NCBI GenBank assembly: GCA_030838025.1
Contig: JAUTXM010000392.1
Location: forward strand, 1-43,855
DNA: 43,855 nucleotides
Direction of reading: 5' to 3'
Origin: Acidimicrobiaceae bacterium
GTDB lineage: Bacteria > Actinomycetota > Acidimicrobiia > Acidimicrobiales > Palsa-688
A program made the position numbers and the translations under genes. Every line of letters starts with the position of its first letter. Position 1 is the stretch's first letter. This document shows positions 21,388 through 43,855 of the stretch, in pieces. The notes below the pieces were generated by a model. It was not told where the DNA came from and did no database searches. It worked only from the letters and a program-made list of their open reading frames with translations.

Positions 21388-21458
21388 GCGAGCGTAGTTC
21401 AGCGGCAGAACATCAGCTTCCCAAGCTGAGAACGCGGGTTCGATTCCCGTCGCTCGCT
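21388..21458 (+). tRNA. tRNA-Gly (anticodon CCC)
   Basis: Folded by hand. Acceptor GCGAGCG/CGCTCGC, D stem GTTC/GAAC, anticodon stem TCAGC/GCTGA with loop TTCCCAA, T arm GCGGG-TTCGATT-CCCGT, discriminator T. CCA is not encoded. Confidence 0.9.
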
Positions 21459-21489
21459 CGCTCTGCTCTCCCCCTGGTATTCAACAAAT

Positions 21490-30748: not shown

Positions 30749-31909
30749 GTGAACACGGGACACCCCGGTGACTCAGGCGACCCTGACCCGGTTATCGCAG
30801 CTGGGGGAGACCTCGCCGAGGCGTCCCGGACCGCTGATCGGGCCGGTCCCCAACCGGACTCCGAGGCCGGTCCCGACGCACCTGTCGAGCCGGCTGCGCC
30901 CGTCGCACCTGTCGAGCCGCCTGTCGAGCCGGCTGCGCCCGCGGCGCCCGAGCCGGACGCACCCGCGATCCCGGCGGAGCCCGCGACACCCATCGCCCCC
31001 CCGGCCGCGGCGGACCGGGCGGCTCCGTCGCCTCCCACTCCTGCGGACCCGGGAAACGGGAAGCTCTCCGGCCACGCAATCCTGGCCAAGCTGGCGTGGG
31101 CCATGCGCTCCGAACCAGGCGACGTGCGCCCCCACAACGAGGACTTCGCGGGCGTGTTCGCCCCCACCATCCCCGACGACGCCTGGGACCGGGGCCCGTT
31201 CTTCATCGTCGCCGACGGCCTCGGGGGCCACGCCGCGGGCGAGGTGGCCAGCCGCACCGCAGTCGAAACGGCGCTCGCCCACTGGACGGCCGGTACCCCC
31301 GCCGCCCCCCACCAGGCCGTGCGCGCCGCCATCCGCGCCGCCAACGTGGCCGTCTACGATGCCGCCCTGAGCAACCGCCACCACGGCATGGCGACCACGT
31401 TCACCGCCCTCACCCTGGCCGGCAACGAAGCGATCATCGGCCACGTCGGCGACAGCCGTTGCTACCTCGTCCGAGGCCCGACCACGACACAACTCACCAA
31501 CGACCATTCCCGCGTGGGTGAGATGCTGCGCGCCGGTCTCATCACCCCCGACCAGGCCGCCAATCACCCGGCCCGTTCCATGATCTCGCGCTCGGTCGGC
31601 AGTGAACCGGGGGTGTCGGTCGACATCATCCGCCAGCCCACCCAAGCGGGCGACACGTTCCTGCTCTGCAGCGACGGGCTCTGGGACGTGGTCGGCCGCC
31701 GGGACATCACCGACGTGGTCGAGGCCATTGGCACCCCGGCTGTTCCCACCGTCATCGCGGCGGCCGACACCCTGATCGAGCAGGCCTTGGCGCGAAACAC
31801 CCCTGATAACGTCACCCTCCTCGTGGTGCGGATAACCACCGACCGGCCGGTGCCCGCCGCCACGACCCGGCGTTCATTCCTCCGGCGGGGTAGGGGGATA
31901 GTCAGATGA
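30749..31909 (+). CDS. PP2C-family Ser/Thr protein phosphatase with ~110-aa Pro/Ala/Glu-rich N-terminal extension
   Basis: RSEPGDVRPHNEDF, FFIVADGLGGHAAGEVAS, GHVGDSRCYL and LLCSDGLWDVV motifs. There is no alternative ATG/GTG/TTG between 30749 and the catalytic core. Confidence 0.85.
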   Translation: MNTGHPGDSGDPDPVIAAGGDLAEASRTADRAGPQPDSEAGPDAPVEPAAPVAPVEPPVEPAAPAAPEPDAPAIPAEPATPIAPPAAADRAAPSPPTPADPGNGKLSGHAILAKLAWAMRSEPGDVRPHNEDFAGVFAPTIPDDAWDRGPFFIVADGLGGHAAGEVASRTAVETALAHWTAGTPAAPHQAVRAAIRAANVAVYDAALSNRHHGMATTFTALTLAGNEAIIGHVGDSRCYLVRGPTTTQLTNDHSRVGEMLRAGLITPDQAANHPARSMISRSVGSEPGVSVDIIRQPTQAGDTFLLCSDGLWDVVGRRDITDVVEAIGTPAVPTVIAAADTLIEQALARNTPDNVTLLVVRITTDRPVPAATTRRSFLRRGRGIVR

Positions 31910-32847
31910 GCCGCTTCTCGCCCGGCGAACGGCTGGACACCTACGAGATCACCGAACTGCTCGGGGCGGGCGCCTACAACGAGTCCTACCGCGCCACCGA
32001 CCTCCGCAACGGTCGCACGGTCGTCCTGAAGATCCCCGACCCCAACCTGTTCGCCGACCCGGCCACTTACAACCGCTACAAGCGCGAAGCCGAGGTGGCG
32101 AAGCGCCTCGACCATCCCGCCGTGCAGAGCGCGATCGATGATGGCGAGGCGCGAGCCGAGCCCTACCTCGTGCTCACCTTCGTGGACGGCGATTCCCTCA
32201 GCCACCGCCTGCATGAGCAGCGGGGGGCATTTTCCATCCCTATCGTCGTCGACTGGGGCCGGCAACTGGCCGACGGGCTGGCCTACCTCCACGGCCAAGG
32301 CGTCGTGCACCGGGACCTGAAACCGGGCAACGTCCTCATCGGCCCCGGCGACCGCCTGGTCATCGCCGACTTCGGCACCGCCCAGCTGGCCGGGGCGCGG
32401 CGGCTCACGTTCAAGCACCTCACGGGCCTGCTGGGTACCCCGGAGTACATGAGTCCCGAGCAGGTGCAGGGCGGGCGGGGCGACGCTCGCAGCGACATCT
32501 ACGCGCTAGGCGTGATGATGTACGAAATGTTGACAGGCCGGACCCCCTTCGCAGGCAACGACTGGATGGCGGTCATGGCCGGCCATCTGCAGGGCGACCC
32601 GAAGCCGATCCGCAAGGTGCGCCCCGAAACACCCGCCGCCCTCGAGGCCGTCGTCCTCCATGCCATGCGCCGTTACCCCGACAGCCGCTACCAATCGGCC
32701 GACGACATGCGCCGCGACCTCGACCGGCTCGACAGCCTGGACCCGGCCGCCTTCGACCTTTCCCCGGAGAAGCCCATGGGCGGCGCGCCGGGCGGCGGCG
32801 GCAAGGGGCTGTTCTCGAGGATGTTCAAGACGCGAGGCGGCGGGTGA
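31906..32847 (+). CDS. Hanks-type Ser/Thr protein kinase (kinase domain only, no TM)
   Basis: VVLKIPD (catalytic Lys), HRDLKPGNVLI, ADFGTA and GTPEYMSPEQ motifs. The start overlaps the PP2C stop (ATGA). Confidence 0.9.
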   Translation: MSRFSPGERLDTYEITELLGAGAYNESYRATDLRNGRTVVLKIPDPNLFADPATYNRYKREAEVAKRLDHPAVQSAIDDGEARAEPYLVLTFVDGDSLSHRLHEQRGAFSIPIVVDWGRQLADGLAYLHGQGVVHRDLKPGNVLIGPGDRLVIADFGTAQLAGARRLTFKHLTGLLGTPEYMSPEQVQGGRGDARSDIYALGVMMYEMLTGRTPFAGNDWMAVMAGHLQGDPKPIRKVRPETPAALEAVVLHAMRRYPDSRYQSADDMRRDLDRLDSLDPAAFDLSPEKPMGGAPGGGGKGLFSRMFKTRGGG

Positions 32848-33833
32848 GCCGCTACACCCCCGGCGACGTCCTCGACCACTACAAGATCGAGGAGCTTCTC
32901 GGTTCGGGGGCCTATGCCGAGTCGTACAAGGCCACCGACACCCGCGATGGCGGCACGGTCGTGCTCAAGGTTCCCGACCCCAACCTGTTCGCCGATCCGT
33001 CCGCCTTCAGCCGCTACCGCCGGGAAGCCGAGGTGGCCCGCCGGCTCGACCACCCGAGCGTGCAAGGGGCCATCGATCCGGGCGAGTCCCGCAGCGCCCA
33101 CTATCTCGTTCTCGACTACATCGACGGCGTGTCGCTGCGCAAGCGGATGCGGTCCTTCGGCGGCCTGGTGCCCATCGACAAGGTCGTCGATTGGGGACGC
33201 CAGCTGGCCCACGGCCTGGCCTACCTCCACAGCAAAGGGGTCGTGCACCGCGACCTCAAGCCGGAGAACATCCTGGTCACGCCGGACGATCGCCTCGTCA
33301 TCGGCGACTTCGGCACGGCGCAACTCACCGGCGCCCGCCGCCTCACCTGGAAACATCTCTCCGAAAGCCTCGGCACGCCCGACTACATGAGCCCCGAGCA
33401 GGTGCAAGGGGAGCGGGGCGACGCCCGCAGCGACCTCTACTCGCTCGGCGTGATGTTGTACGAGCTGCTCGCGGGGCGGGTTCCCTTCGAGGGCGACAAC
33501 TGGATGGCGGTCATGGCCGGCCACCTCCAGGGCGACCCGAAGCCCATCCACAAGCTGCGCCCCGAGGTTCCGCCCGCGCTCGAGGCGGTGGTGATGCACG
33601 CCATGCGCCGCCACCCCGAGAACCGCTACCAGTCGGCCGACGCCCTGCTGGCCGACCTCGAGCATCTCGACCAGGTCGACCCGGCGGCGTACGACCAGAC
33701 CCCCGAGAAGCCCATGGGCGGCATGGCTGCGGGCCAGTCGTCTCGCCGCCTGTGGGCCATCGCCGCCATGATCTCCGCCGCCTTCCTCGCCTTGGCGGCC
33801 GTGATCATCACGCTGTCCATCCTCCTCCGATAG
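32844..33833 (+). CDS. Hanks-type Ser/Thr protein kinase, tail-anchored paralog
   Basis: VVLKVPD, HRDLKPENILV, GDFGTA and GTPDYMSPEQ motifs. The C-terminal TM LWAIAAMISAAFLALAAVIITLSILL is followed by only one residue. GTGA overlap with the upstream kinase. Confidence 0.9.
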   Translation: MSRYTPGDVLDHYKIEELLGSGAYAESYKATDTRDGGTVVLKVPDPNLFADPSAFSRYRREAEVARRLDHPSVQGAIDPGESRSAHYLVLDYIDGVSLRKRMRSFGGLVPIDKVVDWGRQLAHGLAYLHSKGVVHRDLKPENILVTPDDRLVIGDFGTAQLTGARRLTWKHLSESLGTPDYMSPEQVQGERGDARSDLYSLGVMLYELLAGRVPFEGDNWMAVMAGHLQGDPKPIHKLRPEVPPALEAVVMHAMRRHPENRYQSADALLADLEHLDQVDPAAYDQTPEKPMGGMAAGQSSRRLWAIAAMISAAFLALAAVIITLSILLR

Positions 33834-33846
33834 TCAGGAACCGCCA

Positions 33847-35097
33847 GTGACCGAAATCGAGGGCTTGCGCTGGATCCGGCTCGTGTTCGTCGACGTGTTC
33901 GGCGCGGCTCACGCGGTCGTGTTGCCTGCCGTCCACTTCACCGATGCCTTGGAAAAAGGCGCCCCCTTCGACGGGTCGGCCCTTGCGGGGCGGGCCCGCC
34001 ATTTCGAGGAGGACATGGTTCTTCAGCCGGACCCGGCAACCCTGGTCGACCTGGGTGAGGGCCAGGGTCGTGTGGCGTGCACGGTGATCGGGCCTGACGG
34101 CCTTCCGTGGCTGGGCGACCCCCGAACGGCGCTGGTGACGAAGCTCACCGAGCTCGGTGACGTGGCCTCTACTTATAGGGCTGCTGCCGAAGTCGAGTTC
34201 TATATCTTGCGCGACGACGGGCAGCCGGTCGACCGAGGCGGCTATTTCGGCGAGCTGGAGGGTGCCGGATCGTTGGTCACCCGGGCGGCGGCGTCGCGTC
34301 TGGCTGAGTACGGCGTGGAGGTGATCAGCACCCATCTCGAGTCGGGGCCGGGGCAGTACGAGTTGGACCTGGCGTCGCTGTCGCCGCTCGCGCTGGCCGA
34401 TGGGTTGGTGCTGACCAAGCAGGTCCTGCGCGAGGAGGCGACGCGTGCCGGGCTACGGGTGACGTTCATGGCCCGGCCGTTCGCGAACGAACCCGGTTCG
34501 GGCCTGCACCTGCACCAGCACCGGGAGGGCAACGACGTGCTGTTCGATTCGCGGGGGATGTTGACATCGGTCGGTCGAGCGTTCCTGGGCGGGCAGTTGG
34601 CCCATGCCGCCGGGCTGAGCGCCCTGGCCGCCCCCAACATCAACTCCTACAAGCGGCTGCACAGCGGGCCCGAAGCACCCAGCGACATCATCTGGGGTCA
34701 CCTCAACCGTTCGGCGGTTATCCGGGTGGGCAGTTCCGGCGAACAACGACCGGCGATCGAGTTCCGCCTGGCCGACCCGGCGGCCAACCCGTACCTGCTG
34801 GTATCGGGCCTACTGGCGGCGGCGGCCCACGGCGTCGCCGCCGACGTCGACCCCGGTGGGCCCTTCGAGGAGGACATCGGTGGTTTCGACCCCGCCACGG
34901 CCAGCGCCATGCAGGTGCGGCGCCTGCCCCGCGACCTCGATGGCGCCTTGGACGCCCTCGTGGCCGACGACGTGCTGGTCGACGCCTTCGACAGCCGCCT
35001 GCTGTCGCGCCTGGTCGACGGTCGCCGGGTCGAGGCCGACGACTTCCGGGCTCAGGTCACACCCTGGGAGGTCGAGCACTACCTGGACGAGGCCTAG
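33847..35097 (+). CDS. glutamine synthetase family protein (GlnA-like gamma-glutamyl ligase)
   Basis: AAEVEFYIL, GPGQYELDL, MARPF...GSGLHLHQ, NSYKRL, NRSAVIRV and EFRLADPAANPYLL motifs of the type I GS catalytic domain. The gene is short (416 aa). It starts 13 nt after the kinase stop. Confidence 0.85.
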   Translation: MTEIEGLRWIRLVFVDVFGAAHAVVLPAVHFTDALEKGAPFDGSALAGRARHFEEDMVLQPDPATLVDLGEGQGRVACTVIGPDGLPWLGDPRTALVTKLTELGDVASTYRAAAEVEFYILRDDGQPVDRGGYFGELEGAGSLVTRAAASRLAEYGVEVISTHLESGPGQYELDLASLSPLALADGLVLTKQVLREEATRAGLRVTFMARPFANEPGSGLHLHQHREGNDVLFDSRGMLTSVGRAFLGGQLAHAAGLSALAAPNINSYKRLHSGPEAPSDIIWGHLNRSAVIRVGSSGEQRPAIEFRLADPAANPYLLVSGLLAAAAHGVAADVDPGGPFEEDIGGFDPATASAMQVRRLPRDLDGALDALVADDVLVDAFDSRLLSRLVDGRRVEADDFRAQVTPWEVEHYLDEA

Positions 35098-35218: not shown

Positions 35219-37399
35219 CTACTGGTCGGGCGCGGCGTCGGGGCTGTCGAAACCGTGGGCGTCGGTGGGAGGCGTGGGCTCAGAAGGGGCGTTCGGGGTC
35301 GTCGGCCGGTCGAACCAATCAAATCCGGCCAGGCGTGCCGGCGCCTCCGAGTCGTCGGGGGCAACGGGGCCGGCCCCGCTATCGACGCCAGTTGGGGGTT
35401 CGAGATCGGCGGGGGCGTCCGCCCCGCCATCGAATGCTTCCGGAACTGCGGGGCTTACCGGCTCCTCGGCGTTGGCGGGGGCGGCAGGTACGACCCAAGC
35501 GCCGCTGCCGGCCGGGAGTTCGGGCCCGGCAGGAGTAGCCAAGCCGTCGACCGCATCGGGGGGTTCGGGCGCCCCCGGGGCCTCGGGGGCGGCGGGGTCG
35601 GCCCAGGTGTCGGCGGAGGCCGGGGGTTCGGGGCTGGCGGCGGCGGAGTCGGGGGCGGGGGCGGCCCAGGTGTCGGCGGTGCCCGGGCGTTGGGGGCTGG
35701 CGGGGGCGGGGGAGTCAGCCCGGGTGTCGGCGGTGGCCGGGGGTTGGGGGCGGGGGGTGTCGTTCTCGGTCCGGTCGTCGGTGGCTGTCGGCTCCGCGGG
35801 ACTGGTCCGGGCGGTCGGGATGGTCGGACTCGTCGCTCCTGGCAGGCGTGCCGCCTCCGAGGAGCGCGTGGCACCCGACGAGCGGCGCACGTTGAGTGTC
35901 TGGGGCAGCGGCAGGGCGTCCCACGCCCGTCGACGCTCGGCCGCCGGGTCCAACTCGAGGGCCGGGCGGGACTGTATTGACATGATCGCTCGTCGCCCCG
36001 GCTGATAGGCGGGCCACGCGGGAAGCGCAGCCGTACCGGGGTCACCGACTCTCGCGAAGTTCAAGATCACGTCCTGGAGTAACTCCGCGACGGTGCGATC
36101 GGCGTTGGTCGAAAGCCCGGGAAACGCCCCCTCGGTCGGTCCGGTGAAGTCCAACCAGGTAAACGGCAGGTCGGCGCCATGGCAGGGTCCGAGCTGATCG
36201 AAGGGCACCTGTCCGGGCGTGTGGTCGAAGCGCATGATCCAGCTCCGGCCCCCACCGCGGTTGTGGGCCTCGGCAGTGCGGACGGCGGGAATGCCGAACA
36301 GCAGATCGGTCAGCAGGTCGGCTCGTCCTCGGTCCTGGGGAAAACCCTTCTGATAGGTCCGGATCAGTCGTTCCCAGGCCACGTCGCCGAACCACGCCCG
36401 AGCCCGCAATTCCTTGGCCTTTATATAGCCCTCAGGTGAGATGGCGAGGTACAGGTTGGCCTCTTGCTGGCACGTGCTGATGAGCAGCGGTATCTGAGAC
36501 GAAGCCCCCGAGACCAGCCCGGCCATGGGATGGCCGGGCAGCACCGTGCCGTCGACCACCGGCAGGAAGGGTTCGCCTTCGAGCTCGGCGTCGTCGGAGT
36601 CGCGCATCAACGAGCCGGCTGCCTCCCGTATCGCGTCCACGGACAGCTCCCGGAGTTCGGACACCTCTCGGTAGTCGACGCCGAGCGAGTTGAGCATGCG
36701 CACGACCACAGCCCGGGAGCGCCAACGGCTCTGGACCCGGTCGGCGGCTCCGCTTTGCATGACGGCCCGGTGGAACAGTCCGGCCGCGGCGGGCATCGCC
36801 AGCAGCGCACCCACGCAGGTCGCACCCGAGGCCTGTCCGATGACGGTCACGCGGTTGGGGTCGCCGCCGAACGCCTCGATGTTGTCGCTTACCCATTGCA
36901 GCGCCGCGACTTGGTCGAGCATGCCGACATTGACCGAGCCCTCGAGCCCCGCCCCGCCCGTCGCCGCCAGGTCCAAGAAACCCCAAGGGCCGAGGCGGTA
37001 GTTGATCGTCACAATCACGGCGTCACCGCGGTTGGCCAGCCACGCCCCGTCGAAGTTGCTCCCGCTGCCGAAGACGAATGCCCCCCCGTGCAGCCAGACC
37101 AGGACCGGGCGGGCTTTTCCCCTGGTCCGTGGTGACCAGACGTTGAGGTAGAGGCAGTCCTCGCTCTCGGGAACGACTCCCGAACCTGATGGCAGCACCA
37201 GGCCCGGGACGTCGGTCGAGATGCTCGACGGGCCGAAGTCGGTGGCGTTGCGGGGGCCGTCCCACGGTGGCGAGGGCTGGGGCGGTTGGAAGCGGCGCGG
37301 GCCCTCGGGCGCGCTGGCATAGGGCACCCCGCGCCAGACGGTGACTTTCCCCTGGCGGGACCCCTTGACCCCGAATTTGGACTGCCGTCCCGAACCCAC
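35219..37399 (-). CDS. type-B carboxylesterase fold protein (PnbA-like) with non-canonical nucleophile elbow and ~245-aa Pro/Ala/Asp-rich C-terminal tail
   Basis: WRGVPYASAP, EDCLYLNVWSP, VLVWLHGGAF, FHRAVMQSGA and GPCHGADLPF motifs. GTG 37399 is preceded by AAGAGG with a 5-nt spacer; the listed ORF start is 37477. The elbow reads GQASG instead of GESAG. Confidence 0.8.
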   Translation of the reverse strand: MGSGRQSKFGVKGSRQGKVTVWRGVPYASAPEGPRRFQPPQPSPPWDGPRNATDFGPSSISTDVPGLVLPSGSGVVPESEDCLYLNVWSPRTRGKARPVLVWLHGGAFVFGSGSNFDGAWLANRGDAVIVTINYRLGPWGFLDLAATGGAGLEGSVNVGMLDQVAALQWVSDNIEAFGGDPNRVTVIGQASGATCVGALLAMPAAAGLFHRAVMQSGAADRVQSRWRSRAVVVRMLNSLGVDYREVSELRELSVDAIREAAGSLMRDSDDAELEGEPFLPVVDGTVLPGHPMAGLVSGASSQIPLLISTCQQEANLYLAISPEGYIKAKELRARAWFGDVAWERLIRTYQKGFPQDRGRADLLTDLLFGIPAVRTAEAHNRGGGRSWIMRFDHTPGQVPFDQLGPCHGADLPFTWLDFTGPTEGAFPGLSTNADRTVAELLQDVILNFARVGDPGTAALPAWPAYQPGRRAIMSIQSRPALELDPAAERRRAWDALPLPQTLNVRRSSGATRSSEAARLPGATSPTIPTARTSPAEPTATDDRTENDTPRPQPPATADTRADSPAPASPQRPGTADTWAAPAPDSAAASPEPPASADTWADPAAPEAPGAPEPPDAVDGLATPAGPELPAGSGAWVVPAAPANAEEPVSPAVPEAFDGGADAPADLEPPTGVDSGAGPVAPDDSEAPARLAGFDWFDRPTTPNAPSEPTPPTDAHGFDSPDAAPDQ

Positions 37400-37567
37400 C
37401 GATACCTCTTGTTCCGTCACTGGTGTTGCCGCGAAACGACCGCCAGAGCAACCTACCAGGGGAGTGCCCCTCCGCATCCCCGTACCAGGTCAGCCGCCGT
37501 TTATACGTTTGGTTCTTCTCTTTGGGGATGGTTGCGCAAGGGTTGTCCGTCAAGTACCGTCCCGCCC

Positions 37568-40500
37568 ATGTCAGGACTGCTCGGAGTTCTCGCGCTCGCG
37601 GCCACCCTTAGTCGGGACCCCGGCGTTACCACAGCTTCTACTGCTGCACCGGCGGCTGCCGGCCCAAGCGGAGGTACCGGACAGGCCACGGGTACCGGCG
37701 CGTCCACCACCGGTGGCACAGGCGCGGGCGGAGCGTCGGGACCATCCGGCAACAACTCGACCACGAGCGGGTCCGCCCACAGCGGGAGCGCGGCCGCGAC
37801 CTCGACCGCGACGGGGGGCTCGACCGGAGCAACCGGGGCTGCCACCGTGAGCCCGTCTGTCACCGCCGGTAGCGGCGGGGGCGGAGCAGGCACGGCCACG
37901 CCGGTCAGCGGTACCACGGGGACCGCATCCTCCGGAACCGTCTTCTCGGGCGGCGTCGGCGGTGGCCCAGGCGGCGGTACGGGCGCTGTGGCCGTGGTCG
38001 TCAGCAGCGGGAACTCCGGCGCTGCGGTCGCCAACGCGACCGGCGGCTCGTCGGGGCCGGCCTCGGCCGCATCCGTCGGCAATGCCACCAGCGGCGCCTC
38101 CGGCGCGTCGGTCACAACCTCCTCCGCGACCGGGGGGACGTCGGGCAGCGCCGTTTCCAGCCCCGTCTCGAGCAACACCGCCACCACCGGCGACGGCGGC
38201 CACTCCGGCCCCACCGGCAGTGCGGCCCAGACATCACTCGCAGCGACGGGCAGCACCGGTACCTCAGGGAGCGCGCCCAGCGGTGGATCCGGTCAGGCGA
38301 CCGCCGCCGGTTCGGCGGGTTCGGGCTCCTCGGGCGCGGGCGGCGACTCGGGTGCGGCCACCAACGTTTCGGAGACGACCGGCACCGCCACCTCGGGCGA
38401 AGCCGACGCCACCTCTGAGGCGACCGGCGGCAACACCGGCAGTTCGGGTGCCGCGACCAACGCCCCCGCCAACACCGCCACCAGCGGTGCGGGGGGCGAC
38501 GCAGTCGCCACGCCGACCAGCGGGAACACCGGTGACGCCACCTCAGGCACCGTGTTCTCAGGCGCCGCCACCCATGGCGGAGGCAGTGGCGCGGTCATGG
38601 TCACCGTCATCTCCGGTAACTCCGGCGCCGCCACGGGGACCGCCAACGGTGGATCTTCCGGACCGGCATCGGCCACCTCGACCGGCAATGCCACCTCCGG
38701 CGCCACCGGATCCACCACGACGACGTCGTCGGCGACCGGCGGCACCTCGGGCAGCGCGGTTGCGAGCCCCGTTTCGACCAATACTGCGGGGACCGGCGAC
38801 GGCGGCGCCTCGGGCGCCACGGGCACGGCGTCGCAGACGTCGATCGCCTCGTCGGGCGATACCGGCGGCACCGGCTCAGGTCCGACCGGCGGTTCCGGCA
38901 AGGCGCGCGGCACCGGCACGGCAACCTCGGGCGACTCAGGTGCGGGCGGATTCTCCGGCGATGCCAGCAACGGCTCGACGACCACCGGCACCGCCACGAC
39001 AGGCGACGCCACCGGCTCGTCCACTGCCAGCGGCGGCGACTCGGGCAACTCGGGTGACGCCACCAACAGGCCGGTCAACACTGCCACGTCCGGCCCCGGC
39101 GGAATCGCCACGGTCATCTCGACCAGCGGCAACACCGGCGACGCCACGTCAGGAACGGTCTTCTCAGGCGCCGTCACCGGCGGAGGCGGTAGCGGGGCGG
39201 TGTTGGTCACCGTCGTTTCGGGCGACTCGGGCGCCGCCACCGGCACCGCGACCGGCGGTACCTCCGGCGCGGCCACCGCCACGTCGACCGGCGACGCGGT
39301 CTCCGGTGCCACGGGGGATTCGACGACCACCTCGTCGGCGACCGGCGGGACGTCGGGCGGGGCAGTTGCCAGCCCTGTTTCCACCAACGCCGCGGGCACC
39401 GGCAACGGCGGCGCCTCGGGCGCCACTGGCGCGGCCTCGCAGACCTCGAACGCCACGTCTGGTTCGACCGGCGGGGCTGGTCCCTCGGGCGGCTCCGGCA
39501 AGGCCACCGCACGGGGGACCTCCATCTCCGGTGACTCTGGCACCGGTGGCGACTCAGGCGCGGCCAGCAACGGCTCGACGACGACCGGAACCGCCGTGAG
39601 CGGCGACGCCAGTGGCGCTTCGACCGCGAGCGGGGGCGATACCGGTTCCTCGGGTGCCGCGACCAACGCACCGGGCAACACCGCGACCAGCGGCACCGGT
39701 GGCGACGCCACCGTCGTCACGGTCTCCGGTAACACCGGGGACGCCACCTCGGGGGCGGCCTTCTCGGGTGCGGTCACCGGCGGCGGCGGCAGTGGCGCGG
39801 TTGCGGTCAATGTGACCTCGGGCAACTCGGGTGACGCCACCGGCACCGCCAACGGCGGTTCCACCGGCGCGGCCACCGCTTCGTCGACCGGCAACGCCAT
39901 TTCGGGCGCCACCGGCAGCTCGATCACGCATTCGTCCGCAACCGGCGGAACGTCGGGCAGTGCCACGGCCAGCCCGACCTCGTCCAATACCGCGGGCACG
40001 GGCAACGGGGGCGCCTCAGGCACGACCGGCAGCGCCTCCCAGACCTCCACGGCCACGTCGGGCAACACTGATCCTCCGGTCGGCCCGACGGGCGGCTCGG
40101 GTGGCGCCCGGGCCGATGGCACGGCACTTTCGGGCTTCTCGGGTGACGGCGGCTTCTCGGGCGCGGCGACGAATGACTCGACGACGACCGGAACCGCCAC
40201 CACGGGCGAGGCCGAAGGCACCGCCGGCGCCACTGGCGGCACCACCGGTAACTCCGGCGATGCCACCAACATCCCGATCAACTCCGCCTTCTCCGGCGAC
40301 GGCGGCACCGCCTTGGTGCTCGCCACCAGTGGAGCGACCGGGGACGCCACTTCCGGCGCCGCCTTCTCGGGTGACGTCCACGGCGGCGGCGGCAGCGGTG
40401 CCGTTGCGGTCACCGTAACCTCGGGCAACTCGGGTGCTGCGACGGGCAACGCGACCGGCGGCACTTCCGGCGCCGCCACTGCCTCGTCGACCGGTGATGC

Positions 40501-43500
40501 CATCTCGGGGGCGACCGGCGACTCGGTCACCACCGCATCGGCGACCGGCGGCACCTCGGGCAACGCGGTTGCCAGTCCTTCTTCCAGCAACACCGCCGCC
40601 ACCGGCGACGGCGGGGCGTCGGGCAACACCGGGACCGCCTCCCAGACCTCCGGTGCCACCTCGGGCGACACGGGCAGCCCCACCTCGGGCGGCCCGACGG
40701 GCGGGTCCGGCGCGGCGCGGTCCAGTGGCACCGCGATCTCCGGTGACTCAGGCATCGGCGGTGACTCAGGCTCAGCCCTCAACACATCCAGCACCACCGG
40801 CACCGCGACCAGCGGTGACGCGGAGGCAACCGCCCTTTCTTCGGGCGGCACCACCGGCAACTCGGGTGCCGCCACCAACGTTCCGATCAACACTGCCGTC
40901 AGCGGCATCGGAGGCGACGCCACCGTCGTACCGACCAGCGGCGACACCGGTGCGGCCGCCTCGGGGGCCGCCTTCTCGGGCAGCGTCACCGGGAGCGGCG
41001 GCAGCGGCGCGGTTGCGGTCACCGTCACCTCAGGCGACTCGGGTGCGGCCACCGGGACGGCGAACGGCGGTTCCAGCGGAGCGGCGACCGCCAGCTCCTC
41101 GGGCGACGCCATCTCGGGTGCGACCGGCTCCGTAACCACCACCTCCTCGGCAACCGGCGGGACTTCGGGCAGCGCCACCGCCAGTCCCATTTCGGCCAAC
41201 ACCGCCAGCACGGGTGCCGGCGGGGCGTCGGGCACCACCGGCTCGGCGTCGCAGACGTCCACGGCCACCTCGGGCAACACCGATCCCCCCATCGGCCCGA
41301 CGGGCGCATCGGGTGTTGCTCGTTCGTCGGGTTTCGCGGGTTCCGGCTTCTCGGGCGACGGCGGCTTCTCAGGTGACGCCGTCAACGTCTCGACCACCCT
41401 TGGGATCGCTCATTCCGGCGCCGCCAGCGCCGGTTCCGTCTCCACCGGAGGCACCAGCGGCAACTCGGGTGACGCCCTCAACAATCCGTCCAACACCGCG
41501 GTCTCCGGCGACGGTGGCGCCGCCACCTCGCTCGCGACGAGCGGGAGTACGGGCGACGCCACCTCAGGGGCGGCGTTCTCCGGTGATGTCTCCGGTGGCG
41601 GCGGCAGCGGCGCGGTCGACGTGACCGTGACCTCAGGCACGACGGGTGACGCCACGGGCGAAGCCACCGGTGGGACCTCCGGTGCCGCCAGCGCCAGCTC
41701 GGTCGGCGACGCCATCTCCGGCGCCACCGGAGCCGTTCTCACCACTTCGTCAGCCACCGGCGGGACGTCAGGCGACGCCGTTGCCAACCCGGCTTCGACC
41801 AACGCCGCCACGACCGGTGACGGTGGTGCATCGGGCGCAACCGGAAGTGCCTCGCAGACCTCCGACGCAACCTCGGGCGACACTGGCGACCCGGCCGGTG
41901 CCGGTGCCACGGGTGGTTCGGGCCGGGCCCGGGCCGCAGGTACCTCGATCTCGGGTGATTCCGGATTCGGCGGCGACTCCGGCTCCGCCACCAATGCCTC
42001 GGACACCACGGGCCGCGCCAGCACAGGCAACGCCGGCGCCTTGGCAGTATCTCTCGGCGGCGATTCCGGCTCGTCCGGTTCGGCCACCGACGTCCCGGTC
42101 AACTCCGCCACCAGCGGCGCCGGGGGGGCTGCGGACTCTGAGTCGGCAACGGGCGACAGCGGCGATGCCACTTCGGGCGCCGCCTTCTCGGGTGCGGTCA
42201 GCGGCAGCGGTGGCAGCGGCGCCGTCAACGTCAGCGTCAACAGCGGCGGCGGCACCGCCACTTCGGGCGCCGCCTTCTCGGGTGCGGTCAGCGGCGGCGG
42301 CGGCAGTGGCGCCGTCAATGTCGGGGTCAACAGCGGCTCCGGCCCGGCCGCCTCGGGGACGGCCTTCTCGGGTGCGGTTACCGGCGGCGGCGGCAGTGGC
42401 GCGGTTGATGTCACCGTGACCGGCGGTCCGGCCACGTCCGGTACCGCCTTCTCCGGTGCGGTCAGCGGCGGCGGCGGCAGCGGAGCGGTCGATGTCACGG
42501 TCGCCAACGGCAGCGGTGGCGGCTCAGGCTCGGCCTCCGATACCGCGAACGGCGGCTCCTCCGGGGCGGCGACCGCGTCCTCGGTCGGCGATGCCATCTC
42601 GGGTACCACCGGCGATGTCACCACGACCAGTTCGGCCACCGGCGGCACCTCAGGTGACGCCACGTCCGATCCCACCTCGTCCAACGACGCCAGCTCAGGC
42701 AATGGCGGCGACTCCGGCTCGACCGGCACTGCCTCTCAGACTTCGACCGCTACCAGTGGCACCACTGACCCGCCGGGCGGTACCACCGGCGGTTCGGGCG
42801 CCGCCTCGGCGGACGGCTTCGCCGGGTCTGGCTTCTCGGGTGACGGCGGTTTCTCCGGCGACGCCACCAACGTCTCCCGCACCCGCGGTCGGGCAAAGAC
42901 CGGCGATGCCTTCGGCGTGGCCGTCTCCACCGGCGGCGTCAGCGGTGACTCTGGACCGGCCACCAACGTCCCGATCAACATCGCTGCCAGCGGCGCCGGC
43001 GGCGCCGGCGTGAGCGGCACCGGCGGCTCGTCGGGCGCAGCCACGGCGTCCTCCATCGGCGACGCCATCAGCGGTGCCACTGGATCGTCGATGACCACCG
43101 CTTCGGCAACCGGCGGGACTTCGGGTAACGCAACCTCCAGCCCGACCTCCTCCAACGCCGCGTCCACGGGCGCCGGCGGGGACTCGGGCAACACCGGGAC
43201 CGCATCCCAGACGTCCGACGCCGCCTCTGGTGATACCGGTGGCCCGACCACGACGGGTGCTACCGGCGGGTCAGGTACCGCACGGGCCACCGGTACGGCC
43301 ATCTCGGGCGACTCAGGCATCGGGGGCGATTCCGGCGACGCCAGCAACACCTCCCTCACTCGTGGCCGGGCGGTCAGCGGCGACGCGGGCGCAGCTGCGC
43401 TGGCCTTCGGTGGCGACACCGGCGCGTCGGGTGCCGCCAGTGACACTCCGATCAACATCGCGACCAGCGGCGATGGCGGTGCGGGCGGCGGCGGCAACGG

Positions 43501-43855
43501 CGGCTCGACGGGCGCTGCCGTTGCGAGCTCGGTGGGCGACGCCATCTCGGGCGCCACCGGCGACTCGGTCACGCACGCTTCTGCGACCGGCGGGACCAGC
43601 GGCTGGACCCTCGCCAGCCCGACCTCGTCCAACATCGCCTCGACCGGCGATGGCGGCGCCTCCGGAACCACCGGAAGTGCCGCTCAGACATCGCTGGCCT
43701 CGTCGGGTTCCACGGCCGCGGCCGGCCCCGGTGTGACCGGAGGCTCGGGCAGGGCCAGGGCACGCGGGTTTGCGGGATCGGGCTTCTCGGGAGACGGCGG
43801 CTTCTCGGGCGACGCCACCAACACCTCCCTCACTCGTGGCCGGGCGGTCAGCGGC
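37568..43855 (+). CDS. giant Gly/Ser/Thr/Ala-rich tandem-repeat protein, 3'-partial (>2,096 aa), absent from the supplied ORF track
   Basis: My own translation of the + frame with codon starts equal to 2 mod 3. ATG 37568 (alternative TTG 37532, 3 nt after GGGGA) gives MSGLLGVLALAATLSRDPGVTTASTAAPAAAGPSGG.... The frame stays open for all 2,096 codons to base 43855. The minus-strand ORFs listed here are a single frame broken by TGA at 38293, 41410 and 42736. Each of these stops is created by a T-ending codon in the + frame (ggT Cag, gcT Cat, tcT Cag). Confidence 0.72.
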   Translation, partial: MSGLLGVLALAATLSRDPGVTTASTAAPAAAGPSGGTGQATGTGASTTGGTGAGGASGPSGNNSTTSGSAHSGSAAATSTATGGSTGATGAATVSPSVTAGSGGGGAGTATPVSGTTGTASSGTVFSGGVGGGPGGGTGAVAVVVSSGNSGAAVANATGGSSGPASAASVGNATSGASGASVTTSSATGGTSGSAVSSPVSSNTATTGDGGHSGPTGSAAQTSLAATGSTGTSGSAPSGGSGQATAAGSAGSGSSGAGGDSGAATNVSETTGTATSGEADATSEATGGNTGSSGAATNAPANTATSGAGGDAVATPTSGNTGDATSGTVFSGAATHGGGSGAVMVTVISGNSGAATGTANGGSSGPASATSTGNATSGATGSTTTTSSATGGTSGSAVASPVSTNTAGTGDGGASGATGTASQTSIASSGDTGGTGSGPTGGSGKARGTGTATSGDSGAGGFSGDASNGSTTTGTATTGDATGSSTASGGDSGNSGDATNRPVNTATSGPGGIATVISTSGNTGDATSGTVFSGAVTGGGGSGAVLVTVVSGDSGAATGTATGGTSGAATATSTGDAVSGATGDSTTTSSATGGTSGGAVASPVSTNAAGTGNGGASGATGAASQTSNATSGSTGGAGPSGGSGKATARGTSISGDSGTGGDSGAASNGSTTTGTAVSGDASGASTASGGDTGSSGAATNAPGNTATSGTGGDATVVTVSGNTGDATSGAAFSGAVTGGGGSGAVAVNVTSGNSGDATGTANGGSTGAATASSTGNAISGATGSSITHSSATGGTSGSATASPTSSNTAGTGNGGASGTTGSASQTSTATSGNTDPPVGPTGGSGGARADGTALSGFSGDGGFSGAATNDSTTTGTATTGEAEGTAGATGGTTGNSGDATNIPINSAFSGDGGTALVLATSGATGDATSGAAFSGDVHGGGGSGAVAVTVTSGNSGAATGNATGGTSGAATASSTGDAISGATGDSVTTASATGGTSGNAVASPSSSNTAATGDGGASGNTGTASQTSGATSGDTGSPTSGGPTGGSGAARSSGTAISGDSGIGGDSGSALNTSSTTGTATSGDAEATALSSGGTTGNSGAATNVPINTAVSGIGGDATVVPTSGDTGAAASGAAFSGSVTGSGGSGAVAVTVTSGDSGAATGTANGGSSGAATASSSGDAISGATGSVTTTSSATGGTSGSATASPISANTASTGAGGASGTTGSASQTSTATSGNTDPPIGPTGASGVARSSGFAGSGFSGDGGFSGDAVNVSTTLGIAHSGAASAGSVSTGGTSGNSGDALNNPSNTAVSGDGGAATSLATSGSTGDATSGAAFSGDVSGGGGSGAVDVTVTSGTTGDATGEATGGTSGAASASSVGDAISGATGAVLTTSSATGGTSGDAVANPASTNAATTGDGGASGATGSASQTSDATSGDTGDPAGAGATGGSGRARAAGTSISGDSGFGGDSGSATNASDTTGRASTGNAGALAVSLGGDSGSSGSATDVPVNSATSGAGGAADSESATGDSGDATSGAAFSGAVSGSGGSGAVNVSVNSGGGTATSGAAFSGAVSGGGGSGAVNVGVNSGSGPAASGTAFSGAVTGGGGSGAVDVTVTGGPATSGTAFSGAVSGGGGSGAVDVTVANGSGGGSGSASDTANGGSSGAATASSVGDAISGTTGDVTTTSSATGGTSGDATSDPTSSNDASSGNGGDSGSTGTASQTSTATSGTTDPPGGTTGGSGAASADGFAGSGFSGDGGFSGDATNVSRTRGRAKTGDAFGVAVSTGGVSGDSGPATNVPINIAASGAGGAGVSGTGGSSGAATASSIGDAISGATGSSMTTASATGGTSGNATSSPTSSNAASTGAGGDSGNTGTASQTSDAASGDTGGPTTTGATGGSGTARATGTAISGDSGIGGDSGDASNTSLTRGRAVSGDAGAAALAFGGDTGASGAASDTPINIATSGDGGAGGGGNGGSTGAAVASSVGDAISGATGDSVTHASATGGTSGWTLASPTSSNIASTGDGGASGTTGSAAQTSLASSGSTAAAGPGVTGGSGRARARGFAGSGFSGDGGFSGDATNTSLTRGRAVSG
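37919..43855 (+). repeat. coding tandem repeat: 8 units of 600-612 bp, then shorter ~474-480 bp units, running off the window
   Basis: The anchor motif G-x-A-x-SG-x-x-FSG begins at 37919, 38531, 39137, 39737, 40340, 40949, 41552 and 42161. An exact 36-nt repeat aacacctccctcactcgtggccgggcggtcagcggc occurs at 43346..43381 and 43820..43855. Confidence 0.9.

What the first reader, a model, noticed from the sequence alone, without database searches (positions are those of the whole stretch)
37919..43855. Higher-order repeat architecture: ~200-aa units with alternating A/B subtypes, then a shortened unit type
SEEN: eight units with 600-612 bp spacing share a fixed order of modules. The order is (T/A)SG..FSG.V.GGGGSGAV.V.V.SG.SG, then ..GG.SGAA.A.S.G.AISGATG....T.SATGGTSG, then .A.P.S.N.A.TG.GGASG.TG.ASQTS, then a basic patch GGSG.AR, then SGDSG.GGDSG...N.S.TTG, then GG..G.SG.ATN.P.NTA.SG.GG. 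From about 40.0 kb the central module alternates between two variants. One is 'NTDPP.GP...G(F/L).GSGFSGDGGFSG' and the other is 'GT.ISGDSG(I/F)GGDSG', which implies a ~1.2-kb super-repeat. After 42.5 kb the FSG/GGGGSGAV module is missing and the period drops to about 474-480 bp. An exact 36-nt match 474 bp apart at the window end indicates recent homogenisation or expansion. INFERENCE: the roughly 11-residue rhythm of small residues would suit a beta-solenoid or fibre.
Basis: partly seen in the sequence, partly recalled or inferred. Interest (0 to 1): 0.7.

Follow-up and report, generated by a model that had tools for sequence, protein, structure and literature searches.

The report
Giant orphan Gly/Ser/Thr/Ala repeat protein
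The region is the first 6.3 kb of one very long gene from an uncultured actinobacterium. It encodes an acidic protein built from at least ten old, individually conserved 200-residue repeats, has no recognisable relatives in the protein databases, and is most likely an exported fibre or coat protein.

Summary
The repeat architecture is real. One + strand ORF starts at ATG 37568 and has no stop before the window end (2,096 codons). It holds a partial unit plus ten units.

- **Spacing:** 200-203 aa six times, then 294 aa (the FSG..GGGGSGAV module is present four times in tandem), then 157 and 159 aa (module missing).
- **A/B alternation:** strict from unit 3 to unit 10. The strongest DNA autocorrelation lag is 1212 nt (z=17).
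- **Age:** units are only 62-75% identical in DNA. Differences fall mainly on codon position 3, and dN/dS is about 0.33.
- **Ortholog:** an 882-aa fragment from another metagenome aligns with no internal gap (70% identity, dN/dS 0.32).

So the array is ancient, selected and not an assembly artefact.

There is no 11-residue rhythm; the real sub-structure is eight GG-terminated segments per unit (21/29/19/29/22/29/23/30 aa). "Recent homogenisation" applies only to short local tracts. AlphaFold2 gave no confident fold (pLDDT 30-34).

Pfam, NCBIfam and PDB gave nothing. A profile search of 1.84 billion proteins gave six weak hits, one of them with an LPXTG signal.

My best reading, at moderate confidence, is an exported, regularly structured surface or matrix fibre. 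The family is new; the kind of protein is familiar.

The parts
37490..37567 (+). Conserved non-coding upstream region. It is probably the promoter of a leaderless or near-leaderless mRNA: TTGCGC, 17 nt, TACCGT, 7 nt, ATG.
   Evidence: This stretch is more conserved between the window and L001 than the coding sequence is. A 1-nt indel between TTG 37532 and ATG 37568 rules out the TTG as a shared start. The promoter reading is inference; the consensus scan found nothing.
37568..43855 (+). Coding sequence of the giant repeat protein. The 5' end is complete and the 3' end is cut by the window end. It has 2,096 codons (178 kDa so far) and pI 4.05. Composition is G 25%, S 18%, A 18%, T 17%, with no Cys or Tyr.
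   Evidence: No stop in 2,222 codons. Differences between units are 49% at codon position 3 against 23-25% at positions 1 and 2. dN/dS is 0.32 against the ortholog L081.
37568..37618 (+). N-terminal hydrophobic, signal-peptide-like segment MSGLLGVLALAATLSRD.
   Evidence: It is conserved in L001 as MSGLLVSLALAAALSRD. Signal function was not tested, and there is no basic n-region.
37676..38122 (+). Partial unit 0 (aa 37-185). It has the second part of a unit, including the first FSG..GGG module.
   Evidence: GG-segment series 29, 22..., 23, 30. First copy of repeat family D6 at 37872.
38123..38728 (+). Unit 1 (202 aa).
   Evidence: Its best match among the L081 units is the positional ortholog M1 (72%).
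38729..39334 (+). Unit 2 (202 aa).
   Evidence: Its best match among the L081 units is M2 (73%).
39335..39934 (+). Unit 3 (200 aa), B type (ISGDSG at 39524-39541).
39935..40537 (+). Unit 4 (201 aa), A type (TDPP at 40067; SGFSGDGGFSG at 40130-40162).
   Evidence: The TDP marker is shared with L081 unit M4.
40538..41146 (+). Unit 5 (203 aa), B type (ISGDSG at 40736-40753).
41147..41749 (+). Unit 6 (201 aa), A type (TDPP at 41279; SGFSGDGGFSG at 41342-41374).
41750..42631 (+). Unit 7 (294 aa), B type (ISGDSG at 41948-41965). It is enlarged by four tandem copies of the 30-aa FSG..GGGGSGAV module.
42167..42497 (+). Tandem array of the 90-nt (30-aa) module ATSGAAFSGAVSGGGGSGAVxVxVxSG: 3.8 copies, 82% matches, with a 39-nt exact match between the first two copies.
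   Evidence: (family D6).
42632..43102 (+). Unit 8 (157 aa), A type (TDPP at 42764; SGFSGDGGFSG at 42827-42859). The FSG..GGGGSGAV module is deleted.
43103..43579 (+). Unit 9 (159 aa), B type (ISGDSG at 43301-43318). The module is deleted, with different deletion boundaries from unit 8.
43580..43855 (+). Unit 10, A type (SGFSGDGGFSG at 43778-43810), cut by the window end after 92 aa.
43819..43855 (+). 37-nt exact copy of 43345-43381 (474 nt upstream). It runs to the last base of the window.

Best explanation
The finding is the 5' 6.3 kb of a single very long protein-coding gene of an uncultured Actinomycetota bacterium.

**What the protein looks like.**
- It begins with a short hydrophobic, signal-like N-terminus and an Ala/Pro/Thr linker.
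- The rest is a tandem array of ~202-residue units made almost entirely of Gly, Ser, Ala and Thr. It is acidic (pI about 4) and has no Cys or Tyr.
- Each unit is a fixed series of eight segments that end in GG and mostly begin xSG (21/29/19/29/22/29/23/30 aa).
- One segment pair carries the only clearly beta-like hydrophobic stretch (FSGAV..GGGGSGAVxVTVxSG).

**Proposed function.** I propose that the protein is exported and that the units stack into a long, regular, small-residue rod or fibre. The Ser/Thr residues are probably decorated. The fibre would serve as a structural spacer, coat or adhesive element on the cell surface or in the extracellular matrix.

**History of the array.** It grew long ago by duplication of two-unit (A+B) blocks. 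More recently one 30-aa module was amplified fourfold in unit 7 and deleted in units 8 and 9.

**Shown:** the coding frame, the start codon, the hierarchy of repeats, purifying selection on each unit, the conservation of unit lengths in an ortholog, and the absence of the family from databases.

**Inferred:** export, folded rod-like structure, glycosylation, and the surface or matrix role.
For: **Coding and selection.**
- The frame is open for 2,222 codons.
- Unit-to-unit differences are 49% at codon position 3 against 23-25% at positions 1 and 2.
- Paralog median dN/dS is 0.33 with dS 0.92.
- Ortholog L081: 882 aa, 70% identity, no internal gap, dN/dS 0.32.

**Fixed geometry, which argues for a defined structure rather than mere composition.**
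- The GG-segment series 21/29/19/29/22/29/23/30 repeats in every regular unit.
- Quarter lengths of 48, 51 and 53 aa are invariant in the seven units that could be split into quarters: five window units (W2-W6) and two of L081.
- 46 invariant and 32 nearly invariant positions per unit are nearly all G/S/A/T/N/P/Q.
- Hydrophobic residues are enriched at lags 2 and 4 and at lags 13-17.

**Export.**
- The hydrophobic N-terminus is conserved in L001, and the ATG is fixed by a frame-breaking indel upstream.
- The composition is strongly acidic and hydrophilic with no Cys.
- Among the only six distant hits in 1.84 billion proteins, P0004 carries the SGNSG..P..SG.GG modules and ends in LPFTG plus a hydrophobic and basic tail.
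- P0001 shares an 83-aa stretch at 65% identity and has a transmembrane helix.

**Not an artefact.**
- The gene start occurs in a second assembly (L001), and four further units occur in a third (L081), with the same unit lengths.
- The longest exact internal repeats are only 37-39 nt.

**General knowledge.** Giant bacterial repeat proteins are mostly extracellular (PMC12863079 abstract).
Against: - The C-terminus is outside the window, so no anchor, secretion signal or effector domain can be seen.
- The N-terminus lacks the usual basic n-region, and no signal-peptide predictor was available.
- AlphaFold2 gave no confident fold. pLDDT was 29.6 for one unit and 34.3 for three units, with only weak strands in the FSG..SATGG part. 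The alignments held only 10 and 5 intragenic rows.
- Only 9% of residues are hydrophobic, which is low for a classical beta-solenoid core.
- The links to P0004 and P0001 are short and compositionally biased (profile E-values 8e-7 and 3e-9).
- The neighbouring genes are not cell-envelope genes: carboxylesterase, a glutamine-synthetase-like protein, two Ser/Thr kinases and PP2C.
- The polysaccharide cluster lies more than 16 kb away.
Confidence: 0.45

Rival explanations
1. The protein has the same location but a different physical state. It is an intrinsically disordered, heavily O-glycosylated, mucin- or sericin-like polymer that forms a hydrated brush or gel around the cell. It is not a folded rod.
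For: 77% of residues are Gly/Ser/Ala/Thr and 9% are hydrophobic. AlphaFold2 pLDDT is about 30 throughout. There is no match to any structured family. Ala/Pro/Thr linkers like the one after the N-terminus are typical O-mannosylation sites in Actinobacteria (my own knowledge, not tested).
Against: Disordered regions normally accept indels and drift in sequence. Here 882 aa align to the ortholog with no internal gap. Segment and quarter lengths are fixed to the residue. The choice among Gly, Ser, Thr and Ala is conserved position by position, with dN/dS about 0.3 at dS about 0.9.
Confidence: 0.25
2. The repeat array is only the stalk of a delivery protein, such as a polymorphic toxin or a large adhesin with a functional head. 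The active domain lies at the missing C-terminus.
For: The gene is cut by the window end. Long repetitive N-terminal filaments followed by variable C-terminal toxin domains are described for polymorphic toxin systems, including in Actinobacteria (PMC3482391, listed; I read the abstract only).
Against: No known trafficking or pre-toxin domain is present in the 2,096 aa available. There is no immunity-like or secretion-system gene upstream.
Confidence: 0.1
3. The protein is an ice-binding, ice-nucleating or mineral-binding array. A flat, regularly spaced Thr/Ser/Asp surface would organise water or cations.
For: The repeats are hierarchical and rich in Ser/Thr/Gly/Ala. T-x-T-like strings are present (VTVTS, TGTAT), as is an invariant SQTS motif. 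The protein is acidic, with 105 Asp+Glu against 24 Lys+Arg. The resemblance to ice-nucleation protein repeats rests on my memory only.
Against: There is no Pfam hit to the ice-nucleation repeat or to any antifreeze family, even at E<=10. There is no 8/16/48-residue period and no Tyr. The sampled environments are unknown to me.
Confidence: 0.05
4. It is not a real gene of this form. Either the array is an assembly artefact or non-coding repeat, or the true gene is the antisense Pro/Glu/Val/Ala-rich ORF (38293-41409 and its continuations).
For: The antisense frame is open for 1,039 + 442 + 316 codons. It has a more 'gene-like' GC1/GC2/GC3 pattern (0.82/0.56/0.84) than the sense frame (0.59/0.80/0.82). 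The window ends inside an exact repeat. Related contigs break inside the array.
Against: The antisense frame has stops, while the sense frame has none in 2,222 codons. Substitutions between units and between orthologs pile up on sense position 3. The open antisense frame is a by-product of a protein with no Tyr and few His or Gln. Two other independent assemblies carry the same gene start or the same unit lengths. Units are 25-38% diverged, so collapse by an assembler is unlikely.
Confidence: 0.03
5. It is a cytoplasmic Ser/Thr-rich scaffold that is phosphorylated by the two kinases and dephosphorylated by the PP2C phosphatase encoded 4-7 kb upstream.
For: PP2C, two Ser/Thr kinases and the repeat gene are syntenic in the window and in L001. 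35% of residues are Ser or Thr.
Against: The kinase operon is separated from the repeat gene by a glutamine-synthetase-like gene and a convergent or divergent esterase gene. The repeat gene has its own conserved upstream region. The hydrophobic N-terminus and the LPXTG-bearing distant relative point outward.
Confidence: 0.03

Closest known systems
Giant tandem-repeat extracellular proteins of bacteria (for example the Giant1-5 proteins of Apilactobacillus kunkeei, PMC12863079; RTX-type and Bap-type adhesins)
   Same: Very long gene. Signal-like N-terminus followed by many tandem units of 100-200 aa. Acidic. Hard to assemble. Presumed role as a surface spacer or adhesin.
   Different: Those units are recognisable folded domains (Ig-like, cadherin-like and so on) with Pfam models. 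Here no model matches, even at E<=10, and the units are 77% Gly/Ser/Ala/Thr.
PE_PGRS proteins of mycobacteria
   Same: Actinobacterial. GC-rich. Long Gly-rich low-complexity arrays. Surface-associated. Notoriously difficult for assemblers and annotators.
   Different: There is no PE domain at the N-terminus. PGRS is made of GGA/GGN short repeats with about 40-50% Gly and few Ser/Thr (my knowledge). Here Gly is 25%, Ser+Thr is 35%, and the unit is a precisely conserved 202 aa.
Serine-rich repeat glycoproteins of Gram-positive cocci (Fap1, GspB, SraP)
   Same: Ser-rich, probably glycosylated, fibril-forming surface proteins with very long repeat regions.
   Different: SRRPs have di- to octapeptide Ser-X repeats, a long specialised signal peptide, an accessory Sec locus and LPXTG. 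Here the signal-like segment is short, there is no aSec gene in 37 kb upstream, the units are 202 aa, and the C-terminus is unknown.
Ice-nucleation proteins (InaZ family)
   Same: Hierarchical repeats (8/16/48 aa there; about 25/50/100/202/404 aa here). Ser/Thr/Gly/Ala-rich. A conserved S-Q/T-T-S-like motif. A beta-solenoid is proposed for both.
   Different: No sequence match to the Pfam ice-nucleation repeat. No Tyr ladder. Different periods. Gram-positive lineage.
RTX / GGxGxD beta-roll repeats
   Same: Gly-Gly turn motif followed by a small residue and Gly (GGxSG here). Asp-rich and acidic. Regular spacing.
   Different: The period is about 25 aa, alternating 19-23 and 29-30, not 9 aa. There is no HemolysinCabind match.
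Metagenomic hypothetical proteins P0001 and P0004 (the only real sequence relatives found)
   Same: P0001 shares 83 aa at 65% identity, covering three consecutive GG segments including FSGAVTGGGGSGAVAVTVTSG. P0004 shares the SGNSG.A..P....SG.GG pattern.
   Different: They are short proteins (568 and 349 aa) with 2-3 modules embedded in other sequence. P0001 also has a transmembrane helix, and P0004 has Cys-containing hydrophobic inserts and LPFTG. Neither has a 202-aa unit or an array. Both are singletons named 'hypothetical protein'.

Membership tests
PE_PGRS (mycobacterial PE family) | N-terminal PE domain (about 110 aa, PF00934) followed by GGA/GGN repeats. | tested here: not met
   No Pfam family was reported at E<=10 for the N-terminal 185 aa or at E<=0.01 for the whole protein. 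The N-terminus is a 17-aa hydrophobic segment followed directly by repeats.
RTX beta-roll proteins | Tandem nonapeptides GGxGxDxUx (PF00353). | tested here: not met
   No Pfam hit. There is no excess sequence self-identity at lag 9 (z=-2.8). GG recurs every 19-30 aa.
Ice-nucleation proteins | 16-residue repeats AGYGSTxTAxxxSxLx with 48-residue super-repeats (PF00818). | tested here: not met
   No Pfam hit at E<=10. No Tyr in 2,096 aa. No signal at lags 8, 16 or 48 above neighbouring lags.
Serine-rich repeat glycoproteins (SRRP) | Long KxYKxGKxW-type signal peptide; short Ser-X repeats; accessory SecA2/SecY2 and glycosyltransferase locus; LPXTG. | tested here: not met
   The N-terminus is MSGLLGVLALAATLSRD. 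The units are 202 aa. There are no SecA2/SecY2 genes in the 37 kb upstream. The C-terminus is not available.
LPXTG-anchored Gram-positive surface proteins | C-terminal LPXTG, hydrophobic stretch and basic tail; N-terminal Sec signal. | not testable with these tools
Only a weak distant relative (P0004) shows LPFTG. The N-terminal signal could not be scored because no predictor was available.
Collagen-like / polyglycine-II (Gly-X-Y) proteins | Gly at every third residue over long runs. | tested here: not met
   Gly-Gly co-occurrence at lag 3 is enriched only 1.6-fold, and only locally (SGxSGx). There is no sustained period-3 peak; the top Fourier periods are 25.25, 10.1 and 15.5 aa. No Collagen Pfam hit.
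Trimeric autotransporter head / Hep_Hag-type left-handed beta-roll | 14-residue repeats with a conserved SxAxG pattern (PF05658); Gram-negative anchor. | tested here: not met
   No Pfam hit. Lags 14 and 28 are only weakly raised (z about 3.4). The lineage is Actinomycetota.
Beta-solenoid proteins in general (structural class, not a homologous family) | Coils of constant length with inward-facing residues at fixed positions; a confident stacked-coil model. | tested here: inconclusive
   Segment lengths are constant, and quarter lengths are fixed. However, segments alternate 19-23 and 29-30 aa, hydrophobic residues are 9%, and AlphaFold2 pLDDT is 30-34.

The most novel reading that the evidence does not exclude
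This would be the first described representative of an unrecognised class of bacterial fibre protein. It would be a hierarchically built small-residue repeat (about 25, 50, 100, 202 and 404 aa) with a new regular fold.

The class would be systematically invisible in protein databases for two reasons. Short-read assemblies break inside the array. GC-frame-based gene callers are also likely to prefer the open antisense frame.

In line with this, the family is absent from a library of 1.84 billion proteins, and the 882-aa true-frame product of contig L081 is not in the underlying 15-billion-protein collection. Yet a near-identical organism occurs in at least three other public assemblies or metagenomes.
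Probability: 0.2. Interest if true: 0.65.

Novelty: new variant of a known kind. Interest (0 to 1): 0.45.

Why it matters
If the reading is right, an uncultured soil-type actinobacterium spends more than 6 kb of coding sequence on a protein type that no database model, solved structure or structure predictor recognises. Selection nevertheless keeps it fixed residue by residue. Three consequences follow.

1. It is a clean test case for folds made almost only of Gly, Ser, Thr and Ala. Such proteins are of interest as materials (silk-, sericin- or antifreeze-like).
2. It is a worked example of how hierarchical repeats grow. Block duplication of two units came first, followed by module-level amplification and loss. 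Orthologous units can still be told apart, so the array has not undergone concerted evolution.
3. It is a warning about annotation. The sense frame has an atypical GC2-rich signature and the antisense frame stays open, so such genes are easily missed or called on the wrong strand.

It does not bear on a long-standing open question, and the function remains inferred.

Tried and rejected
- **Word-indexed homology search, whole 2,096-aa fragment:** 8,000 candidates, none at E<=1e-3.
- **Same search with the antisense ORF:** one spurious low-complexity hit to a dehydrogenase E1 component.
- **Pfam** at E<=0.01 and at E<=10, **NCBIfam** at E<=1, and a **PDB sequence profile** at E<=10: nothing.
- **Pfam and NCBIfam on the six distant hits:** only a sub-threshold LPXTG match and an unrelated Wzz domain.
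- **Viral contigs and plasmids:** nothing.
- **Structure prediction:** both runs had low confidence. I did not run a fold search, because matches to such models are meaningless.
- **Ancient internal duplication inside the unit:** hhalign of half against half gave probability 15%, and quarter against quarter gave 6-62%. This is suggestive but inconclusive.
- **Extending the gene beyond the window through exact-protein look-ups of neighbours:**
  - Six of the eight neighbour look-ups found nothing (plus start variants).
  - Two found near-identical strains: 99.6-99.9% DNA identity in JGI samples 3300066540 and 3300044722, and an identical STPK2 protein in NCBI GCA_030839165.1. None of these contigs reaches the repeat gene.
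- **TTG 37532 as the start codon:** rejected, because a 1-nt indel in L001 breaks that frame.
- **The 11-residue rhythm:** rejected.
- **Literature searches** for giant genes, polyglycine II and the MAG accession: no description of this family.

Full report
**1. What is at the coordinates**

- The + strand frame that contains 37919-43855 is open from 37190 to the last base of the window: 2,222 codons with no stop. Every other frame has stops.
- The window has about 65% G+C. The region itself has about 74%, which follows from a protein made of Gly, Ala, Ser and Thr codons.
- The gene lies divergently, 90 nt from a carboxylesterase gene (35219-37477, - strand).
- The start is ATG 37568. In the one close relative found in genome collections (L001, a MAG labelled Actinomycetota bacterium), the ATG and about 70 nt upstream are conserved. 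A 1-nt indel there breaks the frame of the alternative TTG at 37532.
- I read the conserved upstream stretch as a promoter of a leaderless or short-leader mRNA (TTGCGC, 17 nt, TACCGT, 7 nt, ATG). This is inference; the consensus scan found nothing.

**2. Is the + frame the coding frame?**

This needed checking. The antisense frame is open for 1,039, 442 and 316 codons in a row, and its GC1/GC2/GC3 pattern (0.82/0.56/0.84) looks more like a normal high-GC gene than the sense frame does (0.59/0.80/0.82).

- Differences between repeat units fall on sense codon position 3 at 49% of sites. Positions 1 and 2 differ at 25% and 23%.
- The same holds between orthologs: 47% against 22% and 22%.
- dN/dS is about 0.33 among units and 0.32 between orthologs.

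The sense frame is therefore translated and under purifying selection. The open antisense frame is a by-product of a protein with no Tyr and few His or Gln.

**3. The repeat architecture**

- The anchor SATGGTSG occurs ten times, at aa 186, 388, 590, 790, 991, 1194, 1395, 1689, 1846 and 2005 (nt 38123 to 43580). Spacings are 202, 202, 200, 201, 203, 201, 294, 157 and 159 aa.
- The repeat finder reports the same series in DNA: 606, 606, 600, 603, 609, 603, 882, 471 and 477.
- A partial unit 0 (aa 37-185) precedes unit 1, so the array starts almost directly after the N-terminal segment.
- Against codon-shuffled controls, DNA self-identity is z=17.4 at lag 1212 and z=9.1 at lag 603.
- The central module alternates strictly from unit 3 to unit 10:
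  - ISGDSG (B) at 39524, 40736, 41948 and 43301.
  - SGFSGDGGFSG (A) at 40130, 41342, 42827 and 43778.
  - TDPP occurs in three of the four A units.
- Twelve alignment columns separate A from B completely, most of them in the central module.
- Same-type units average about 71% protein identity and different-type units about 67% (matrix). The 1.2-kb super-repeat is real, and the array grew, at least in part, two units at a time.
- Unit 7 is 294 aa because the 30-aa module ATSGAAFSGAVxGGGGSGAVxVxVxSG stands four times in tandem (42167-42497, period 90).
- Units 8 and 9 lack that module, with different deletion boundaries.
- The exact match near the window end is 37 nt (43345 and 43819) and runs to the last base, so its real length is unknown.

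**4.

- Cutting the protein after every GG run gives the same series in every regular unit: 21, 29, 19, 29, 22, 29, 23 and 30 aa. Almost every segment begins xSG.
- This explains the strongest Gly periodicity, 25.25 aa, which is 202/8.
- Grouped in pairs, the quarters are 48-51, 48, 51 and 53 aa long. The last three are invariant in the seven units that could be split: five window units and two units of the ortholog.
- Whether halves or quarters are themselves old duplicates is undecided. hhalign probabilities were 6-62%.
Lag 11 has z=-1.1.

**5. Age of the array and the artefact question**

- Units are 62-75% identical in DNA, with dS about 0.9. The longest exact internal repeats are 39 and 37 nt. 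Such divergent copies are not the kind that assemblers collapse.
- A JGI metagenome contig, L081 (2,648 nt, open end to end in one frame), encodes 882 aa that align to aa 86-967 of the window protein with no internal gap. Identity is 70%.
- Its unit lengths (202, 202, 200) equal those of window units 1-3.
- Unit-specific strings are shared position for position: HGGGSGAVMVTVISGNSGAATGTANGGSSG in unit 1, AVLVTV in unit 2, and TDP in unit 4.
- L081 units 1 and 2 are most similar to window units 1 and 2.
- So the first four units already existed in the common ancestor and have evolved independently since. There is no sign of concerted evolution there.
- "Recent" events are confined to the fourfold module in unit 7 and the short identical tract at the window end.
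- Contig L001 ends inside the array after only the first 151 codons, and L081 lies entirely inside it. The window also ends inside an exact repeat. Assemblies evidently tend to break here, and the copy number downstream of 43.9 kb is unknown.

**6. Relatives**

- Pfam (also at E<=10), NCBIfam and a profile search of PDB sequences gave nothing.
- A profile of the ten units was run with HMMER against 1.84 billion representative proteins. It returned six proteins at E<=1e-3, the best at 2.9e-9.
- As a control, the same profile with the same database size scores the L081 product at 8e-250. Even the 151-aa N-terminal fragment of L001 scores 1.7e-19. The search would have found any protein holding part of a unit, so the family really is missing from that library.
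- The true-frame product of L081 is not in the underlying collection either. Whether that is due to wrong-frame gene calls or to sampling, I could not tell.
- All six hits are singletons without useful names:
  - P0001 shares 83 aa at 65% identity, covering three consecutive segments including FSGAVTGGGGSGAVAVTVTSG. It also has a transmembrane helix.
  - P0004 has the SGNSG.A..P....SG.GG pattern twice and ends in LPFTG, a hydrophobic stretch and a basic tail. That is a sortase signal, scored below the Pfam threshold.
  - P0002, P0003 and P0005 share only SGD(S/T)GDA-type motifs.
  - P0006 is probably a compositional match.
- Viral contigs and plasmids hold nothing similar.

**7. Organism and context**

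- The esterase, the glutamine-synthetase-like protein, both Ser/Thr kinases and PP2C are 77-87% identical and syntenic in L001. The repeat protein's N-terminus is 69% identical. It therefore evolves faster than its neighbours but is still constrained.
- Near-identical DNA (99.6-99.9%) occurs in two JGI metagenomes. An identical STPK2 protein occurs in the NCBI assembly GCA_030839165.1. None of these contigs reaches the repeat gene.
- The left half of the window is a Wzx/Wzy-type polysaccharide cluster with three sulfotransferases. It is too far away to link to the repeat gene.

**8. Structure**

- AlphaFold2 was run with the only alignments I was allowed to use, which were intragenic units.
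- One unit gave mean pLDDT 29.6. Three units gave 34.3. In the three-unit model, the best blocks reached about 40-46, with short strands in the FSG..GGGGSGAV to SATGG part of each unit.
- That is no evidence for a fold. Given alignments of 10 and 5 rows, it is not strong evidence against one either.
- The argument for a defined structure is evolutionary. There are no indels over 882 aa at 70% identity. Segment lengths are fixed. The choice among Gly, Ser, Thr, Ala, Asn and Pro is conserved position by position.

**9. Most likely function**

- I commit to an exported, long, regular rod or fibre at the cell surface or in the matrix, probably modified on Ser/Thr, with confidence about 0.45.
- This rests on:
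  - the conserved hydrophobic N-terminus;
  - the acidic, hydrophilic, Cys-free composition (pI 4.05, 105 acidic against 24 basic residues);
  - the LPXTG-bearing and membrane-bound distant relatives;
  - the general rule that giant bacterial repeat proteins are extracellular (PMC12863079).
- Export, fold, glycosylation and role are all inferred.
- The main rival is a disordered mucin-like coat (0.25). It is favoured by the composition and the AlphaFold result, and disfavoured by the indel-free conservation.
- Minor rivals:
  - a stalk for a missing C-terminal effector (0.10);
  - an ice- or mineral-binding array (0.05);
  - an artefact or the antisense gene (0.03);
  - a cytoplasmic phospho-scaffold for the neighbouring kinases (0.03).

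**10. Comparison and novelty**

- In what it probably does, the protein resembles giant repeat adhesins, PE_PGRS proteins and serine-rich repeat glycoproteins. It fails the defining features of each (see the membership table) and of RTX, ice-nucleation, collagen-like and Hep_Hag repeats.
- It is a new sequence family of a familiar general kind.
The architecture is fully confirmed and the orphan status is striking, but the function is inferred, the gene is incomplete and no open question is settled by it.

Noticed in passing
window 1-21303: A Wzx/Wzy-type exopolysaccharide gene cluster. It contains a priming sugar transferase (1292-2119 -), two epimerases/dehydratases, a Wzz plus P-loop tyrosine-kinase-like protein (3748-5604 +), three GT4 glycosyltransferases, a flippase (8117-9634 -) and a Wzy_C polymerase/ligase (9714-10988 +). 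It also has three pectate-lyase-like beta-helix proteins, one of them with fn3 domains (19318-21303 -). Three sulfotransferases are present (12559-13548 +, 13527-14411 -, 16494-17408 -), which suggests a sulfated polysaccharide.
   Followed up: partly
window 38293-43683, - strand: The antisense frame of the repeat gene is open for 1,039, 442 and 316 codons, with only two stops in 5.4 kb. It translates to a Pro/Glu/Val/Ala-rich sequence and has a more typical high-GC codon-position pattern than the true frame. This is a likely trap for gene callers. The same holds for L081.
   Followed up: partly
window 37490-37567 and L001 455-530 (- strand): About 70 nt upstream of the start codon are more conserved between the two organisms than the coding sequence. 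No Shine-Dalgarno-like sequence is present. There is a possible -35 (TTGCGC) and -10 (TACCGT) at a spacing that would give a leaderless mRNA. No Rfam family matches there.
   Followed up: partly
window 35219-35900, - strand (C-terminal about 230 aa of the carboxylesterase): The carboxylesterase (COesterase domain, aa 40-514) carries a long Pro/Ala/Asp/Glu-rich C-terminal tail. Part of it is encoded by 54-63-nt tandem repeats at 35559-35751. The L001 match to the window esterase ends at query residue 537, so no match to the C-terminal tail was found there.
   Followed up: no
window 30749-33833: A PP2C phosphatase is followed by two paralogous Ser/Thr kinases with overlapping stop and start codons. 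The second kinase ends in a C-terminal hydrophobic tail anchor (RRLWAIAAMISAAFLALAAVIITLSILLR). A glutamine-synthetase-like gene follows (33847-35097). The block is syntenic in L001.
   Followed up: partly
window 21388-21459, + strand: tRNA-Gly (anticodon CCC), found by both ARAGORN and Rfam. It is the only RNA gene in the window.
   Followed up: no
window 25364-27685, - strand: A fused membrane redox protein with a NarI-like (nitrate reductase gamma) membrane domain, a 4Fe-4S dicluster and two CCG cysteine-rich domains (HdrD/DsrK-like). From memory, this architecture is common in Actinobacteria.
   Followed up: no
L082 436-2142 (protein P0001): A 568-aa metagenomic hypothetical protein carries two to three copies of the FSG..GGGGSGAVxVTVTSG module. 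They sit between an unknown N-terminal domain and Pro-rich linkers, a transmembrane helix and an unknown C-terminal domain. This shows that the 30-aa module can occur outside the 202-aa unit.
   Followed up: partly
L084, L085, L086: A near-identical organism is present in other public data sets. Window DNA is 99.6-99.9% identical to contigs from JGI samples 3300066540 and 3300044722. A contig of NCBI assembly GCA_030839165.1 encodes an identical STPK2 protein. All of these contigs stop short of the repeat gene.
   Followed up: partly
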